In this document: in pieces, positions 7,588-29,374 of the stretch
How the letters are laid out: every line of letters starts with the position of its first letter
Numbering within the stretch: position 1 is the first letter of the stretch
From: Escherichia coli
GTDB lineage: Bacteria; Pseudomonadota; Gammaproteobacteria; Enterobacterales; Enterobacteriaceae
NCBI RefSeq assembly: GCF_003019035.1
Contig: NZ_CP027447.1
Length of the DNA: 64,000 nucleotides
Direction: 5' to 3' (one strand)
Program-made: the position numbers and the translations under genes
The notes under the pieces: generated by a model
What the model was told of the DNA's origin: nothing
What the model saw: the letters and a program-made list of their open reading frames with translations, nothing else
Database searches by the model: none

Positions 7588-7616
7588 ACCCCGAAGCCTG
7601 GCTTCGGGGTTTTTTA
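7588..7616. terminator. bidirectional intrinsic terminator between ygaM and the MocR-type gene
   Basis: ACCCCGAAGC-CTGG-CTTCGGGGT stem-loop followed by TTTTTT. Confidence 0.75.
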
Positions 7617-8948
7617 GCTTAAGGCTTTACGTAATTGTTGTGCTACCTGTCGCGCCATACCTTCGTTAACGATATTAGTAAACGAAAGCAGTAATCCACC
7701 TTCCCCACTTGAACGGATACGCCAGTCGCTAAGTGCCTGCACCGCAAGGCCTGCAGCATTGGCTTTACGCGCATGGGCAATATCATCGCCTATCATTCTG
7801 ATCACCATCTGGATACCACCTTTCTGCGGCACAACCTGAAATCCTTGCTGCGTCAACGCTTGCTCAATCCATTGCCGACGTTGAGCATAATGCTGACGCA
7901 TTTTCTTCAGATGCCGCCAGAAATGCCCCTCGCGAAGAAAGTCTGCCAGTGTGTTCTGCCATAGAACAGGTACCGCACATGGAGCCAGTGACGCCTGGTG
8001 GCGGAATTGTGCAATTTGCTTCACCGGCACCACCAGCCACGCACAGCGCAATGCAGGAAATAGCGCTTTGCTGAATGTTCCGGCATAAATTACCCGCTGC
8101 GGTGCGTCGAGACTTTTCAACGCCGGTAACGGCTTACCGTGATAGCGAAACTCACTGTCATAATCATCTTCAATAATCCATGCCTGACTACGATCTGCCC
8201 ATTCCAGTATCTGATGCCTGCGCGCTAAAGAGAGCGCCACACCCAGCGGACTTTGGTGTGCTGGTGTTATCAGGGCAAAACGCGCATCAGGATAATTTTG
8301 TATTCCGCTTGTGATATCCAGTCCATTGTCATCAACCGGCACAGGCAAAATTTCCACATCATGGCGAGTGACAATCGGGCGAATCAGTGGAAAGCCGGGA
8401 TCTTCTATCCACATCCCGTTTCCCGGTTTCGCCAGCGCGTGCAGAATTAAAGCTATTGAGGCCGCATAACCGTGAGTGATAAAGACCTGCTCTGGCTGAC
8501 AATCAATCCCACGTGAAACGCGTAAGTAATCAACTATTGCCTCGCGCAACGCCACCTCACCGCAAACATCGCCTAACGCCAAATCAAAGCGCGTCTGGGT
8601 ACGAAGGCGACGCCCCATCACCCGCGCCCACAGCTCTCGCGGAAAGAGATCGAGTGCGGGTAATCCCATTTGAAATGGCAACGGTTGCTGACTTTCACCG
8701 GCAAAAGCTACAACTTGTACAGTAGATTGTTGCGGATATATCCGCTCACTGACAAATGTGCCAGCCTGTCCCCGCCTGATCAGCCATCCTTGCGCCACCA
8801 GCTCAGCATACGCATTTTCGACAGTGGAACGAGACACCCCCAGCTCCTGCGACCAGGTACGACTTGAAGGCAGCCTTGCGCCGGGTTTCAGTTCCCCTTG
8901 CTCAATAGCCGTTTTTAACTGACGGGCGATATCCTGATAGCGCGGCAT
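7614..8948 (-). CDS. MocR/GabR-type regulator (GntR HTH fused to PLP aminotransferase-like domain)
   Basis: 444-aa ORF; N-terminal GntR-type HTH (MPRYQDIARQLKTAIEQGELKPGARLPSSRTWSQELGVSRSTVENAY), long aminotransferase-fold C-terminus. Confidence 0.75.
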   Translation of the reverse strand: MPRYQDIARQLKTAIEQGELKPGARLPSSRTWSQELGVSRSTVENAYAELVAQGWLIRRGQAGTFVSERIYPQQSTVQVVAFAGESQQPLPFQMGLPALDLFPRELWARVMGRRLRTQTRFDLALGDVCGEVALREAIVDYLRVSRGIDCQPEQVFITHGYAASIALILHALAKPGNGMWIEDPGFPLIRPIVTRHDVEILPVPVDDNGLDITSGIQNYPDARFALITPAHQSPLGVALSLARRHQILEWADRSQAWIIEDDYDSEFRYHGKPLPALKSLDAPQRVIYAGTFSKALFPALRCAWLVVPVKQIAQFRHQASLAPCAVPVLWQNTLADFLREGHFWRHLKKMRQHYAQRRQWIEQALTQQGFQVVPQKGGIQMVIRMIGDDIAHARKANAAGLAVQALSDWRIRSSGEGGLLLSFTNIVNEGMARQVAQQLRKALS

Positions 8949-9035
8949 ATGGTCTGCTTTTTTAGGTAATTTATGGCTCTCTTTAGCAGTCCATTATAGT
9001 GCTACATTGCGGGCGTTAATAAGAGGAGAAACTGT

Positions 9036-9467
9036 ATGACTACATTACGTCAGCCTTACTACGAACTTAGCCCGGCAGTGTATAACGCACTAGTGCAGGC
9101 CAAAACGGCACTGGAAAATAGCACGCTGGATACCACGTTGATGGAGTTAGTTTATTTGCGCGTCTCGCAAATCAACGGCTGCGCATTTTGTCTGGAGATG
9201 CACAGCAAAGCATTGCGCAAATCCGGCGTGCCACAGCACAAACTGGACGCCCTGGCAGGTTGGCGCGTAAGCCATCATTTTGATGAACGCGAGCGGGCGG
9301 CGCTGGCATGGGCGGAATCGGTAACCGAAATTGCCAGAACCCATGCGGAAGACGAGGTTTATCAGCCTTTGCTTGAGCATTTCAGCGCAGCAGAGATCAG
9401 CGACTTAACGTTTGCCATCGGGCTGATGAATTGTTTTAACCGTCTGGCCGTTTCCATGCGGATGTAA
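9036..9467 (+). CDS. carboxymuconolactone decarboxylase (AhpD-like) family protein
   Basis: 143-aa ORF with CAFCLEMH motif typical of the CMD/AhpD core; divergent from the MocR-type regulator. Confidence 0.65.
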   Translation: MTTLRQPYYELSPAVYNALVQAKTALENSTLDTTLMELVYLRVSQINGCAFCLEMHSKALRKSGVPQHKLDALAGWRVSHHFDERERAALAWAESVTEIARTHAEDEVYQPLLEHFSAAEISDLTFAIGLMNCFNRLAVSMRM

Positions 9468-9675
9468 CTTCTTGATGCCGGGTATTCGCCCGGCAAAAAA
9501 ACACAAAATCCCCTACCCCGTTGAGCCATTCATCGGTGGCGTAACCAATCTAAAATTCCCATATCTTGTGTGGTTGAATCTTTTTTCAACTACATCTAGT
9601 ATCTCTGTATCAACAGAGAGACAACCCGACGCGTATCATCGCGCCGTATCTTCATTTTAAACGGAAATACGAATC

Positions 9676-17087: not shown

Positions 17088-17168
17088 CGGGCGGATAAGG
17101 CGTTTTTGCCTCATCCGCCGCTCTGTACACAATGCCTGATGCGACGCTGGCGCGTCTTATCATACCTA
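17088..17168. repeat. REP/BIME element downstream of proX
   Basis: CGGGCGGATAAGGCG...CATCCGCC and GCCTGATGCGACGCTGGCGCGTCTTATCA palindromic units. Confidence 0.6.
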
Positions 17169-17270
17169 CAAACCACACCGCACATTTCAACAATCTATCT
17201 TTCATCCCATATTCATCAACATCCGCTATTATTGATTTCCAGCTTAATCATCACCTGATGAACAAAAATA

Positions 17271-18455
17271 ATGACTAAACCTAATCATGAGCTTAGCCCG
17301 GCGCTGATCGTGCTGATGTCTATCGCCACCGGTCTGGCGGTAGCCAGTAACTATTACGCCCAGCCATTGCTCGACACCATCGCGCGTAACTTTTCCCTTT
17401 CCGCCAGTTCGGCAGGCTTTATTGTTACCACCGCGCAGTTGGGCTATGCCGCAGGTCTGCTGTTTCTTGTTCCCCTCGGTGATATGTTTGAACGCCGCCG
17501 CCTGATTGTCTCGATGACCTTACTGGCGGCAGGCGGCATGTTAATCACTGCCAGCAGTCAGTCGCTGGCGATGATGATCCTCGGTACGGCATTAACCGGT
17601 TTATTCTCAGTCGTGGCACAAATTCTGGTTCCGCTGGCAGCGACGCTGGCTTCACCGGACAAACGCGGCAAAGTGGTCGGCACCATTATGAGCGGGCTGC
17701 TGTTGGGGATCTTGCTGGCACGGACCGTTGCCGGATTGCTGGCGAGTCTCGGTGGCTGGCGAACTGTCTTTTGGGTCGCTTCGGTATTAATGGCACTGAT
17801 GGCGCTGGCGTTATGGCGTGGTCTGCCACAAATGAAATCAGAAACCCACCTCAACTACCCACAGTTGCTAGGTTCTGTTTTCAGCATGTTTATCAGCGAT
17901 AAAATCCTGCGCACCCGCGCGTTGCTGGGCTGCCTGACCTTTGCCAACTTCAGCATTCTCTGGACCTCGATGGCCTTTTTGCTTGCCGCTCCACCTTTTA
18001 ACTACAGCGATGGCGTAATTGGTCTGTTCGGACTTGCAGGAGCTGCAGGGGCGTTAGGCGCTCGTCCGGCGGGCGGTTTTGCCGATAAGGGCAAATCACA
18101 CCTCACCACAACTTTCGGCCTGCTGCTGCTGTTACTTTCATGGCTGGCTATCTGGTTTGGACACACTTCTGTACTGGCGCTGGTTATCGGCATCCTGGTG
18201 CTGGATCTCACCGTGCAGGGCGTGCATATCACTAACCAGACGGTAATTTATCGAATTTACCCCGATGCGCGTAATCGCCTGACTGCAGGTTACATGACCA
18301 GCTACTTTATTGGCGGTGCTGCCGGTTCGCTAATTTCAGCCTCAGCCTGGCAACATGGCGGTTGGGCAGGCGTTTGTCTGGCTGGCGCGACGATTGCCCT
18401 GGTTAACTTACTGGTCTGGTGGCGAGGTTTTCATCGTCAGGAAGCCGCAATTTAA
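17271..18455 (+). CDS. ygaY: MFS transporter (intact here)
   Basis: 394-aa 12-TM-type ORF between proX and ygaZ. Confidence 0.75.
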   Translation: MTKPNHELSPALIVLMSIATGLAVASNYYAQPLLDTIARNFSLSASSAGFIVTTAQLGYAAGLLFLVPLGDMFERRRLIVSMTLLAAGGMLITASSQSLAMMILGTALTGLFSVVAQILVPLAATLASPDKRGKVVGTIMSGLLLGILLARTVAGLLASLGGWRTVFWVASVLMALMALALWRGLPQMKSETHLNYPQLLGSVFSMFISDKILRTRALLGCLTFANFSILWTSMAFLLAAPPFNYSDGVIGLFGLAGAAGALGARPAGGFADKGKSHLTTTFGLLLLLLSWLAIWFGHTSVLALVIGILVLDLTVQGVHITNQTVIYRIYPDARNRLTAGYMTSYFIGGAAGSLISASAWQHGGWAGVCLAGATIALVNLLVWWRGFHRQEAAI

Positions 18456-18578
18456 GCAATCAGCAACCGTTTTCGTGGCTTTACACTTATAAGGGTGTTA
18501 AGAAGCCCATCAGTCTGATAAGGTTAAGATATTCATTCAGTCTATTTATAATATTAACAATCGTTAAGCGTACACTCT

Positions 18579-19316
18579 ATGGAAAGCCCTACTCCACAGC
18601 CTGCTCCTGGTTCGGCGACCTTCATGGAAGGATGCAAAGACAGTTTACCGATTGTTATTAGTTATATTCCGGTGGCCTTTGCGTTCGGTCTGAATGCGAC
18701 CCGTCTGGGATTCTCTCCTCTCGAAAGCGTTTTTTTCTCCTGCATCATTTATGCAGGCGCGAGCCAGTTCGTCATTACCGCGATGCTGGCAGCCGGGAGT
18801 AGTTTGTGGGTTGCTGCACTGACCGTCATGGCAATGGATGTTCGCCATGTTTTGTATGGCCCGTCACTGCGTAGCCGTATTATTCAGCGTCTGCAAAAAT
18901 CGAAAACCGCCCTGTGGGCATTTGGCCTGACGGATGAGGTTTTTGCCGCCGCAACCGCAAAACTGGTACGCAATAATCGCCGCTGGAGCGAGAACTGGAT
19001 GATCGGCATTGCCTTCAGTTCATGGTCATCGTGGGTATTTGGTACGGTAATAGGGGCATTCTCCGGCAGCGGCTTGCTGCAAGGTTATCCCGCCGTTGAA
19101 GCAGCATTAGGTTTTATGCTTCCGGCACTCTTTATGAGTTTCCTGCTCGCCTCTTTCCAGCGCAAACAATCTCTTTGCGTTACCGCAGCGTTAGTTGGTG
19201 CCCTTGCAGGCGTAACGCTATTTTCTATTCCCGTCGCCATTCTGGCAGGCATTGTCTGTGGCTGCCTCACTGCGTTAATCCAGGCATTCTGGCAAGGAGC
19301 GCCCGATGAGCTATGA
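18579..19316 (+). CDS. ygaZ: AzlC-family branched-chain amino acid exporter subunit
   Basis: 245-aa membrane protein ORF. Confidence 0.85.
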
Positions 19317-19641
19317 GGTTTTGCTGCTTGGGTTACTGGTTGGCGCGGCGAATTATTGCTTCCGCTATTTGCCGCTGCGCCTGCGTGTGGGTAATGCCCG
19401 CCCAACCAAACGTGGCGCGATAGGCATATTGCTCGACACCATTGGCATCGCCTCGATATGCGCTCTGCTGGTTGTCTCTACCGCACCAGAAGTGATGCAC
19501 GATACACGCCGTTTCGTGCCCACGCTGGTCGGCTTCGCGGTACTGGGTGCCAGTTTCTATAAAACACGCAGCATTATCATCCCAACACTGCTTAGTGCGC
19601 TGGCCTATGGGCTCGCCTGGAAAGTGATGGCGATTATATAA
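19306..19641 (+). CDS. ygaH: AzlD-family exporter small subunit
   Basis: 111-aa membrane ORF overlapping the ygaZ stop. Confidence 0.85.
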
Positions 19642-23116: not shown

Positions 23117-23125
23117 GGTTGTCAA

Positions 23126-23150
23126 AGGGAGCTGCGGCTCCCTTTTTATT
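23126..23150 (+). terminator. intrinsic terminator after emrB
   Basis: AGGGAGC-TGCG-GCTCCCT stem-loop followed by TTTTT. Confidence 0.75.
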
Positions 23151-23373
23151 TGCTCATTCTGTAAACGGTTGTTTTATCCTCTCATTCGGTGTATCTTTTC
23201 GCCGCCCCAAACTCTTCCATTCACCATTAACCGGTTCTGAGCATTCGCTCAGGTTGTTAATTCTCTTTTTCCTTCGCCCTCGCTTTCGCGGGTGATACTC
23301 ACATTTTTCTTTTAACCCCATAACTCGCACCCTCGCGGGCGTACATTTATTACACACAAAATAATGGATTATT

Positions 23374-24081
23374 ATGAATACCCAACGGAAATACGGGAGA
23401 ACCTGGCATTATCCTTTCTCCCCTGGCACCACCAGCGATGACCGCATTAACGCCGATTACTGGCAGGATTTACAGGCCATCACGCAATTGGTGCACACAG
23501 AAAAACTCGACGGCGAAAATAACTGCCTTAACCGCTACGGCGTGTTTGCCCGCTCCCATGCCGCGCCTACGCAGTCGGCATGGACCTATAAAATTCGCCA
23601 ACGCTGGCAACTGCTGAAAAACGATCTCGGCGACCTGGAGTTGTTTGGTGAAAATCTTTATGCCGTCCATTCGATTGAATATCGCGCCATGGAGCAGGAT
23701 TTTTATCTGTTTGCCGTTCGCTGCCAGGATATGTGGCTGAGCTGGGAAGAGGTGCAGTTTTACGCCGCTCTGTTTGATTTCCCCTGCGTTCCCGAAATCT
23801 CCGGCCCGCAGCCGGGGAATGATGAAAAAAGCTGGCAACGTGATTTTTTGGCGCTGACCAATGCGCGCGGCGCGTTCGATCCCTGGGATACGCAAACTGG
23901 GCAACCCTGTACGCTGGAAGGCATTGTCAGCCGGAATCGTGACGCGTTTTCCGTCGCTGACTTTTCGCATAACGTCTTCAAGTATGTGCGCAAAAATCAT
24001 GTCAAAACCACCGTGCACTGGAAACGACACTGGCAACGGGCGCGGATGGCCCATGAGTTCGCTTATGGAGAACAGTCATGA
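23374..24081 (+). CDS. ATP-dependent RNA ligase-like nucleotidyltransferase (235 aa)
   Basis: Covalent nucleotidyltransferase motifs visible: motif I KLDGEN (Lys at about nt 23503), motif III-like ELFGENLYA, motif IV-like LEGIVSR, motif V-like FKYVRKNH. Confidence 0.55.
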
Positions 24082-25190
24082 TTTGGCAGCTTACCGACGA
24101 CAAACGCTGGTCGACGCTACGCCAGCGTTTCAGTTGGGTTGAGGAGATGCATCACACGCCACAAGACCCGGAGCATCATGGTGAAGGTGACGTCGGCGTG
24201 CATACCGAAATGGTGCTTAACGCCCTCGTTACTCAGCCAGAATTCCAGCAACTCCCCGCTCAACAGCAGGAAGTTTTATGGGCGGCGGCGTTATTGCATG
24301 ATGTTGAAAAGCGCAGCACTACCGTGCAGGAAAACGGACGTATTCAGTCGCCTGGCCATGCTCGTCGGGGCGAACTGACGGCCCGACAAATTTTATGGCG
24401 CGATATCCCAACGCCGTTCGTGCTACGCGAGCAAATTGTTGCGCTGGTGCGTCTGCATGGGCTACCGCTATGGTTACTGGAACGTCCGGAACCGGAGCGT
24501 TTGCTGCTTACAGCTGCAATGCGCATCGACACGCGTTTGCTCGCTTTGCTTGCTCGTGCCGATCTGCTTGGTCGCCAAAGCCCGGATCAGCAATCAATGC
24601 TGGAACGCATAGATCTGTTCGAGCTGTTTTGCCATGAGCAACAATGCTGGGGAAAAGCGCGCCCGTTCGTGTCTGATTCCGCACGCTGGCACTACCTGAC
24701 TCATGAGCAAAGTTCTACTGATTTTGTTCCCTGGGGGGCTGAACCTTTTGAGGTTATTTTGCTGTGTGGCTTACCGGGTATGGGCAAAGATCGCTATATC
24801 AGTGAACAGTGCCAGGGAATTGACGTTATCAGCCTTGATGATATGCGGCGGCGAATCAATGCTAGCCCGGATGACAAAACCGCTACCGGGCGTATTGTGC
24901 AACAGGCAAAAGAAGAGGCGCGCGTTTTTTTACGCCAGAAAAAGCCGTTCATCTGGAATGCAACGAACATTACCCGCCAGCTGCGTAGCCAGCTCATCAA
25001 TCTGTTTACGGCTTACGGCGCACGAGTAAAAATCGTTTATCTGGAAGTGCCATGGGCGCAATGGAAGCAGCAAAATGCCAGACGCAAGTATGCAGTTCCT
25101 GAAGCGGTCGTGATGCGGATGGCCTCAAGGCTGGAAGTTCCTCAACCTGATGAAGCACATAGCGTGGAGTATCGGGTGATTGAAAGGTAA
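24078..25190 (+). CDS. HD-domain phosphohydrolase fused to P-loop kinase (370 aa)
   Basis: N-terminal HD motifs ([17 protein letters not shown]); C-terminal Walker A-like GLPGMGKD; start overlaps upstream stop (ATGA), implying translational coupling with the ligase-like gene. Confidence 0.55.
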
Positions 25191-25229
25191 AAAAACCGGG
25201 CGGTGGTGTCACCTGCCCGGCTTCTTTTG
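25189..25229. terminator. bidirectional intrinsic terminator between the accessory cassette and luxS
   Basis: A-tract, CCGGGC...GCCCGG stem-loop, then CTTCTTTTG. Confidence 0.7.
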
Positions 25230-25238
25230 TTCCACTGA

Positions 25239-28782: not shown

Positions 28783-28859
28783 TGGTGCATCCGGGAGGAT
28801 TCGAACCTCCGACCGCTCGGTTCGTAGCCGAGTACTCTATCCAGCTGAGCTACGGATGC
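28783..28859 (-). tRNA. argQ: tRNA-Arg (anticodon ACG)
   Basis: Reverse complement reads GCATCCGTAGCTCAGCTGGATAGAGTACTCGGCTACGAACCGAGCGGTCGGAGGTTCGAATCCTCCCGGATGCACCA. Confidence 0.95.
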
Positions 28860-28921
28860 ATCGGGAAATTTATTTTACTGCTGATATTGATACCGCTACT
28901 AAAGCCATATCAAGTAAGAGA

Positions 28922-28998
28922 TGGTGCATCCGGGAGGATTCGAACCTCCGACCGCTCGGTTCGTAGCCGAGTACTCTATCCAGCTGAGCTACGGATGC
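28922..28998 (-). tRNA. argZ: tRNA-Arg (ACG), identical copy
   Basis: Identical 77-nt sequence; symbol assigned by position in the array. Confidence 0.9.
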
Positions 28999-29060
28999 AT
29001 CGGGAAATTTATTTTACTGCTGATATTTATACCGCTACTAAAGCCATATCAAGTAAGAGA

Positions 29061-29137
29061 TGGTGCATCCGGGAGGATTCGAACCTCCGACCGCTCGGTT
29101 CGTAGCCGAGTACTCTATCCAGCTGAGCTACGGATGC
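29061..29137 (-). tRNA. argY: tRNA-Arg (ACG), identical copy
   Basis: Identical 77-nt sequence; symbol assigned by position. Confidence 0.9.
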
Positions 29138-29201
29138 ATCGGGAAACTTACTTTACTGCAGATTTTTTGATACCGCCACTAAAGCCGTATCAAGTAAGAG
29201 A

Positions 29202-29278
29202 TGGTGCATCCGGGAGGATTCGAACCTCCGACCGCTCGGTTCGTAGCCGAGTACTCTATCCAGCTGAGCTACGGATGC
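29202..29278 (-). tRNA. argV: tRNA-Arg (ACG), identical copy
   Basis: Identical 77-nt sequence; symbol assigned by position. Confidence 0.9.
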
Positions 29279-29281
29279 AAA

Positions 29282-29374
29282 TGGCGGTGAGGCGGGGATT
29301 CGAACCCCGGATGCAGCTTTTGACCGCATACTCCCTTAGCAGGGGAGCGCCTTCAGCCTCTCGGCCACCTCACC
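29282..29374 (-). tRNA. serV: tRNA-Ser (anticodon GCU), long variable arm
   Basis: Reverse complement reads GGTGAGGTGGCCGAGAGGCTGAAGGCGCTCCCCTGCTAAGGGAGTATGCGGTCAAAAGCTGCATCCGGGGTTCGAATCCCCGCCTCACCGCCA. Confidence 0.95.

What the first reader, a model, noticed from the sequence alone, without database searches (positions are those of the whole stretch)
17271..18455. ygaY is an intact MFS transporter here
The ORF is uninterrupted (394 aa). My recollection is that the K-12 reference annotates ygaY as a pseudogene, so this window would preserve the ancestral functional allele.
Basis: partly seen in the sequence, partly recalled or inferred. Interest (0 to 1): 0.2.

Follow-up and report, generated by a model that had tools for sequence, protein, structure and literature searches.

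The report
Intact ygaY transporter gene; K-12 broken
This window carries an uninterrupted copy of ygaY, a membrane transporter gene of unknown substrate; that is the normal state in E. coli and its relatives, and it is the laboratory strain K-12 that is unusual, having lost 7 bases by slippage at a tiny tandem repeat.

Summary
Window 17271..18455 (+) is an uninterrupted 394-codon ORF between proX and ygaZ, and it encodes an MFS transporter (Pfam MFS_1, E = 1e-40). The only indel between the two is a 7-bp deletion in K-12. The window reads GGCGGCA GGCGGCA at 17525-17538, inside transmembrane helix 3, and K-12 keeps one copy, which gives a stop after codon 88. That deletion occurs in 353 of 5426 complete E. 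coli genomes, and all 60 sampled are K-12 laboratory derivatives. About 5057 genomes have the in-frame state. Intact syntenic orthologues exist in E. fergusonii, E. albertii and Citrobacter, and dN/dS is 0.04-0.05, so the intact frame is ancestral and under purifying selection. Two caveats apply. Being intact is ordinary and already annotated in RefSeq. The window's own allele is a rare variant (73 of 5436 records at 99% identity or more) with four private conservative substitutions, so it is not literally the ancestral sequence. The substrate is unknown (TC 2.A.1.36, YnfM family). Verdict: already known, low interest.

The parts
17271..18455 (+). ygaY coding sequence, intact, 394 aa plus stop. 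It encodes an MFS transporter of the YnfM family (TC 2.A.1.36).
   Evidence: ORF. Pfam MFS_1 1e-40. 95.5% nt identity to K-12 ygaY with a single 7-bp indel. Synteny. Full-length 26% identity to K-12 YnfM, E = 2e-20.
17525..17538 (+). Perfect 7-bp tandem duplication GGCGGCA GGCGGCA within codons 85-90 (L-A-A-G-G-M, transmembrane helix 3). K-12 has lost one unit here, and strain S115 has an independent 19-bp deletion at the same place.
   Evidence: It is the only occurrence in the window. The perfect repeat is present in 1655 of 5426 genomes. The outgroups and F247 read GGCAGCGGGCGGT, an imperfect version encoding the same amino acids.
17478..17501 (+). Codons 70-77, G-D-M-F-E-R-R-R: the MFS 'motif A'-like signature in the cytoplasmic loop between TM2 and TM3.
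   Evidence: Regular-expression match. It is conserved in all orthologues aligned.
17089..17166 (+). REP-type palindromic element (Rfam naRNA4/CssrE-like) in the 191-nt proX-ygaY spacer, just after the proX stop codon.
   Evidence: Rfam RF02564 scores 61.6 bits against a gathering score of 59.5. It explains the median of 6 places per genome. Its length varies between strains: about 100 nt more in F247 and about 107 alignment gaps against E. albertii.
18524..18552 (+). Sigma-70 promoter of the downstream ygaZH unit (TTAAGA-17-TATAAT). It marks the 3' boundary of the ygaY transcription unit.
   Evidence: 10 of 12 consensus match. The same hexamers are listed as an experimentally detected constitutive promoter between ygaY and ygaZ in PMC3946193.

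Best explanation
Window 17271..18455 is the ordinary wild-type, intact allele of ygaY. The gene encodes an inner-membrane secondary transporter of the major facilitator superfamily (YnfM family, TC 2.A.1.36). It most likely works by alternating access and exchanges protons for a small organic solute, probably as an exporter. The substrate is unknown. The K-12 pseudogene arose from such an allele by loss of one unit of a perfect 7-bp tandem repeat (GGCGGCA x2) in the codons for transmembrane helix 3, most likely through replication slippage. This shifts the frame and gives a stop after codon 88. Shown here: the intact frame, the MFS family assignment, the nature and position of the K-12 lesion, its restriction to the K-12 lineage, the intact syntenic orthologues in outgroups, and purifying selection. 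Inferred: slippage as the mechanism, expression of the gene in this strain, the direction of transport and the substrate class.
For: Intact ORF. Pfam MFS_1 at 140 bits. The best full-length NCBIfam and PDB similarities are to 12-TM efflux-type MFS proteins such as SotB, Bcr/CflA and Cmx, all far below their curated cut-offs. Motif A-like GDMFERRR. End-to-end alignment to YnfM, E = 2e-20, and TCDB placement at 2.A.1.36.3 quoted in PMC5417439. A single 7-bp indel against K-12, located exactly at a perfect tandem 7-mer. The K-12 junction occurs in 353 of 5426 genomes, and all 60 sampled are K-12 derivatives. About 5057 genomes have the in-frame state. Syntenic intact orthologues in E. fergusonii, E. 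albertii and Citrobacter. dN/dS is 0.03-0.05 in all inter-allele comparisons, and there are zero non-synonymous differences between K-12 and the S115 and F247 alleles, which indicates recent inactivation. The literature treats K-12 ygaY as a pseudogene or cryptic gene and uses it as a neutral control or integration site.
Against: There is no direct evidence of expression or transport. The simple scan finds no sigma-70-like promoter in the proX-ygaY spacer. I see no obvious Shine-Dalgarno sequence upstream of the ATG when reading. In K-12 the locus has been reported to bind H-NS (PMC10656529), so the gene could be poorly expressed under laboratory conditions. The antiporter 'motif C' (G-x3-G-P-x2-G-G) is absent, so the exporter direction is not secure. 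The crude hydropathy scan resolves 10 clear segments, not 12.
Confidence: 0.88

Rival explanations
1. The ORF is intact but effectively silent (cryptic) in this strain. It would be repressed by H-NS/StpA or lack its own promoter, so being intact has no phenotypic consequence.
For: No promoter-like site in the 191-nt upstream spacer. A REP element and the proVWX terminator region lie directly upstream. H-NS and StpA effects at ygaY in K-12 are reported in PMC10656529.
Against: dN/dS of 0.04-0.05 from E. coli to Citrobacter (dS up to about 1.1-1.5) requires long-term selection on the protein. The frame is kept in about 93% of 5426 genomes. ygaY transcripts are detectable in K-12 and rise after osmotic shock.
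Confidence: 0.1
2. The intact frame here is secondary: the lineage regained it by reversion or by recombination with an intact donor, and the pseudogene state is older.
For: The region is clearly a recombination mosaic. The window's ygaY 5' 400 nt is about 1% diverged from K-12, the 3' part is 5-8% diverged, and ygaZ to mprA are nearly identical.
Against: The deletion is confined to K-12 derivatives. 1204 genomes carry the K-12 haplotype with both repeat units. All outgroups are intact. The window's strain is about 3% diverged from K-12 across the whole region.
Confidence: 0.01
3. The K-12 'pseudogene' is a sequencing or annotation artefact, and K-12 is really intact.
For: None found.
Against: 353 independently assembled complete genomes of K-12 derivatives share the identical junction. 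Both RefSeq PGAP and the curated MG1655 record mark it as frameshifted or a pseudogene.
Confidence: 0.005

Closest known systems
E. coli K-12 ygaY (b2681, UniProt P76628; TC 2.A.1.36.3)
   Same: It is the same locus between proX and ygaZ. Nucleotide identity is 95.5%, and there are 6 amino-acid differences outside the lesion.
   Different: K-12 lacks one GGCGGCA unit and is a pseudogene, while the window is intact. The window has private residues T54, S159, V305 and I394, plus L278 and Y330.
RefSeq WP_096987068.1 'MFS transporter' of E. coli SCU-301 (NZ_CP051751.1)
   Same: 100% identical over window 17100-18600, and the window matches this genome with 3 mismatches in 39 kb.
   Different: SCU-301 carries an IS621 between gutM and srlD that the window lacks, so the window comes from a close relative and not from that record.
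E. coli YnfM (b1596), type member of the YnfM / acriflavin-sensitivity MFS family (TC 2.A.1.36)
   Same: End-to-end alignment at 26% identity, E = 2e-20, with a similar length and the same motif A position.
   Different: It is only a distant paralogue at a different locus, with a different N-terminal extension. No functional inference can be transferred with confidence.
SotB sugar efflux transporter (PDB 6kki) and Bcr/CflA or Cmx-type 12-TM MFS exporters
   Same: Weak full-length sequence similarity: PDB 6kki E = 1.4e-5 over residues 13-383, and NCBIfam PRK03545 E = 6.7e-17.
   Different: All scores are far below the family cut-offs (61.5 bits against 401, for example), so YgaY is not a member of these families. 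The antiporter motif C is absent.

Membership tests
Major facilitator superfamily (Pfam PF07690 MFS_1) | Profile match above the curated gathering score | tested here: met
   140.2 bits against a cut-off of 33.4, E = 1e-40, two stretches
Major facilitator superfamily (Pfam PF07690 MFS_1) | Motif A (G-x-x-x-D-[RK]-x-G-[RK]-[RK]-like) in the TM2-TM3 loop | tested here: met
   G70-D-M-F-E-R-R-R77. A second-half echo, G-G-F-A-D-K-G-K at 268-275, is visible in the translation.
Major facilitator superfamily (Pfam PF07690 MFS_1) | Twelve transmembrane helices arranged as two six-helix halves | tested here: inconclusive
   A crude Kyte-Doolittle scan resolves about 10 clear hydrophobic segments with a central loop at about 187-216. 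Gly/Ala-rich stretches at about 245-265 and 338-360 would be TM8 and TM11 by alignment to YnfM and SotB. No dedicated topology predictor or structure model was run.
YnfM / acriflavin-sensitivity family (TC 2.A.1.36) | Significant full-length similarity to YnfM, and TCDB assignment of the orthologue | tested here: met
   BLASTP against K-12 YnfM gives 26% identity over 409 columns, E = 2e-20. P76628 is listed as 2.A.1.36.3 in PMC5417439.
YnfM / acriflavin-sensitivity family (TC 2.A.1.36) | Transport phenotype, such as acriflavine sensitivity or metabolite export | not testable with these tools
   Function is listed as 'Unknown' for YgaY in PMC5417439. No paper among the 31 holding 'ygaY' appeared to report a substrate (from titles, abstract starts and six papers read by term search). 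Six of the 31 were not listed, and most were not read in full.
DHA1-type drug:H+ antiporters | Antiporter motif C (G-x3-G-P-x2-G-G) in TM5 | tested here: not met
   No match to the pattern. NCBIfam Bcr/CflA, EmrD and Cmx hits are far below their cut-offs. YgaY is therefore not filed as DHA1.
ygaY orthologous group (locus between proX and ygaZ) | Conserved position and high identity to annotated ygaY | tested here: met
   The order proW-proX-ygaY-ygaZ-ygaH-mprA is found in the window, K-12, SCU-301, E. fergusonii, E. albertii and Citrobacter. 5413 of 5426 genomes match at least 80% of the query.
Known anti-phage defence proteins (PADLOC) | Any profile match | tested here: not met
   0 families for YgaY

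The most novel reading that the evidence does not exclude
The perfect GGCGGCA x2 repeat was created by synonymous changes and is carried by about 31% of E. coli genomes plus the K-12 progenitor. It may be a recurrent mutational hotspot that switches ygaY off. Two independent deletions map to it: 7 bp in K-12 and 19 bp in the urinary isolate S115. Loss of ygaY might then be selectively favoured in some settings, such as laboratory culture or the urinary tract, and not merely tolerated.
Probability: 0.07. Interest if true: 0.25.

Novelty: already known. Interest (0 to 1): 0.08.

Why it matters
It matters little for biology at large. The K-12 pseudogene status is in the reference annotation, and intact copies are annotated as 'MFS transporter' in thousands of RefSeq genomes. 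There are three practical points. (1) K-12 work says nothing about ygaY function, because the gene is used there as a neutral control or integration site, so any role must be studied in wild strains or in a repaired K-12. (2) The lesion is a clean 7-bp marker private to the K-12 lineage. (3) A gene under strong purifying selection from Citrobacter to E. coli still has no known substrate.

Tried and rejected
(1) I asked whether the window's allele is exotic. Only 73 of 5436 records are at least 99% identical, and dS against other E. coli alleles is 0.15-0.17, compared with 0.04-0.09 among them. The whole region is about 3% diverged from K-12, and the pattern is an ordinary recombination mosaic. 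I rejected import from another species as a needed explanation. The allele is still closer to E. coli alleles (dS 0.15-0.17) than to E. fergusonii (0.30) or E. albertii (0.50).

(2) I tested whether the 3-4-fold lower third-position divergence in ygaY nt 1-399 reflects a DNA-level constraint, for example the H-NS bridge site reported in PMC10656529. Against E. fergusonii the low-divergence block extends back through all of proVWX, and there is no effect against Citrobacter. A recombination breakpoint inside ygaY explains the pattern better.

(3) NCBIfam and the PDB sequence search gave no family-level or substrate-level assignment. PADLOC gave nothing.

(4) The literature search found no functional study of YgaY.

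(5) I did not run structure prediction, a genome-contig scan or a metagenome scan. None of them could change the verdict, and the shared resources were not justified.

Full report
OBSERVATION. The ORF listing finds an ATG-initiated ORF at window 17271..18455 on the + strand, 394 aa with no internal stop. The flanking ORFs are proW, proX, ygaZ, ygaH and mprA. This is the same order as around ygaY in K-12 MG1655. The protein matches Pfam MFS_1 at 140.2 bits against a gathering score of 33.4, E = 1e-40.

COMPARISON WITH K-12. NC_000913.3 annotates ygaY (b2681, 2808316-2809493, 1178 bp) as a pseudogene. RefSeq marks the same gene in a K-12 derivative as 'frameshifted'. The pairwise alignment shows 53 substitutions and one indel. 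K-12 lacks 7 bases that correspond to ORF nt 255-261. The window reads ACT GGCGGCA GGCGGCA TGTT, a perfect 7-bp tandem duplication at window 17525-17538, and K-12 has a single GGCGGCA. As a result the K-12 frame stops after codon 88 and contains 14 stops in total. A deletion of exactly one unit of a perfect tandem repeat is the classic signature of replication slippage. That mechanism is an inference.

POPULATION SURVEY. An 89-nt K-12 probe across the junction matches at 99% identity or more in 354 records. It matches with a 7-nt gap (96-nt span) in about 5057 records. The reciprocal 96-nt window probe gives the mirror image, with 353 records in the gapped class. A 36-nt probe that can only seed on the deleted junction finds 353 of 5426 genomes. 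All 60 sampled rows are recognisable K-12 laboratory strains, including MG1655, BW25113, C600, J53, JM109, TG1, MC4100, S17-1, RP437, EPI300 and O16:H48. The lesion is therefore private to the K-12 lineage, and the intact state is the rule. In the spread sample, only the K-12-like rows have a frame-disrupting length. 1204 genomes are identical to the K-12 probe apart from the extra 7-nt unit (92.7% identity), so the progenitor haplotype with both units is common. One non-K-12 genome, the urine isolate S115, has an independent 19-bp deletion covering the same repeat and is flagged as frameshifted.

ANCESTRAL STATE. The protein search returns full-length 394-aa proteins from E. fergusonii (97% identity), E. 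marmotae (97%), E. albertii (95%), Shigella and Citrobacter (93%). Contigs encoding three of them show the same neighbourhood, nrdF-proVWX-ygaY-ygaZ(AzlC)-ygaH(AzlD)-mprA(MarR)-emrA-emrB, so they are orthologues. All encode T-L-L-A-A-G-G-M-L at the lesion site. Their DNA, and that of some E. coli such as F247, reads GGCAGCGGGCGGT or similar. The perfect repeat was therefore created by synonymous changes within E. coli. It is present in 1655 of 5426 genomes.

SELECTION. Nei-Gojobori dN/dS is 0.03-0.05 for every comparison, from within E. coli out to Citrobacter, with dS up to about 1.1-1.5. This indicates strong purifying selection on the protein. K-12 has zero non-synonymous differences from the S115 and F247 alleles, so its inactivation is recent.

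THE WINDOW'S OWN ALLELE. Only 73 of 5436 records are at least 99% identical over 17100-18600. The only 100% match listed is E. coli SCU-301, from a rectal swab of a healthy student. The window matches that genome with 3 mismatches in 39 kb but lacks its IS621. The window is about 97% identical to K-12 across the region. Within ygaY, the first 400 nt are about 1% diverged and the rest 5-8%, while ygaZ to mprA are nearly identical. This is a recombination mosaic. The allele has six amino-acid differences from the common E. coli protein. T54, S159, V305 and I394 are private to it among the sequences compared. L278 is shared with Citrobacter and E. albertii, and Y330 with E. fergusonii. The window therefore preserves the ancestral reading frame, but its sequence is a derived, rare variant.

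WHAT IT IS AND HOW IT LIKELY WORKS. YgaY is an MFS protein. It has the motif A-like G70-D-M-F-E-R-R-R77 in the TM2-TM3 loop. It aligns end to end with E. coli YnfM at 26% identity, E = 2e-20. The orthologue P76628 is listed as TC 2.A.1.36.3 in the YnfM family, function 'Unknown', in PMC5417439. The nearest solved structure by sequence is the sugar efflux transporter SotB (6kki, E = 1.4e-5 over residues 13-383). The NCBIfam similarities are to efflux-type 12-TM MFS families but fall far below their cut-offs. The antiporter motif C is absent. I therefore propose a proton-coupled secondary transporter working by alternating access, probably an exporter of a small organic solute. The superfamily-level mechanism follows from established knowledge of MFS proteins. 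The direction and substrate are inferences with roughly even odds. The K-12 deletion falls in TM3, so its 88-aa product cannot form a transporter.

REGULATORY CONTEXT. The 191-nt proX-ygaY spacer contains a REP-type element that scores just above threshold for Rfam naRNA4 (17089-17166). It has no consensus sigma-70 site. The ygaY-ygaZ spacer carries TTAAGA-17-TATAAT (18524-18552). PMC3946193 lists the same hexamers as a constitutive promoter for ygaZH. [quoted passage not shown] Whether ygaY is well expressed in wild strains was not testable here.

LITERATURE. The papers that mention ygaY and were checked use the K-12 pseudogene as a neutral control (10.1101/072470) or as a chromosomal integration site (PMC12134211, and the engineering papers), or discuss its 'crypticity'. 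No study of its function was found.

VERDICT. The K-12 pseudogene is the exception and is already annotated as such. The only added details are the exact lesion (loss of one unit of a perfect 7-bp tandem repeat created by synonymous changes), its restriction to K-12 derivatives, one independent 19-bp deletion at the same site, and the rarity of the window's allele. Novelty: already known. Interest: about 0.08.

Noticed in passing
window 23118-25233 (ORFs 23374-24081 + and 24078-25190 +): A two-gene insert between emrB and luxS that K-12 lacks. It consists of a 235-aa RNA_ligase-family protein (Pfam 1e-27) overlapping by 4 nt a 370-aa protein with a C-terminal AAA_33 kinase-like domain (1e-31) and an N-terminal region with an HD-like motif. 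There is no PADLOC match. It looks like an RNA repair or modification cassette of unknown role.
   Followed up: partly
window 7616-9560: A segment between ygaM and nrdH that is absent from K-12. In the near-identical SCU-301 genome it is annotated as a PLP-dependent aminotransferase-family protein and a divergently oriented carboxymuconolactone decarboxylase-family protein.
   Followed up: no
window 17089-17166 (+): A REP-type element in the proX-ygaY spacer scores just above the Rfam gathering score for naRNA4/CssrE (61.6 against 59.5 bits). The spacer length varies between strains: about 100 nt longer in F247 and different in E. albertii.
   Followed up: partly
window 28786-29374 (-): An array of tRNA-Ser plus four tRNA-Arg genes with even spacing of about 139 nt. 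In K-12 the same array has start-to-start spacings of 275, 139 and 275 nt, so K-12 has about 136 nt extra in two spacers.
   Followed up: no
window 39318/39319: SCU-301, otherwise 99.99% identical, carries a 1277-bp IS621 insertion between gutM and srlD at this point. The window does not, so the window comes from a close relative and not from that record.
   Followed up: partly
window 17271-19641 compared with L004 (E. fergusonii-type contig): The divergence is a sharp mosaic. proVWX and mprA-emrAB differ by only 1-5% from the E. fergusonii-type contig, but the ygaY 3' end, ygaZ and ygaH differ by 15-19%. This implies inter-species recombination with a breakpoint inside ygaY. It also explains the lower synonymous divergence of the first 400 nt of ygaY.
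   Followed up: partly
L007 3297-4462 (E. coli S115, NZ_CP158441.1): An independent 19-bp deletion (alignment columns 252-270) removes the whole GGCGGCAGGCGGCA repeat plus flanking bases in a urine isolate. It is flanked by a 2-nt TT microhomology.
   Followed up: partly
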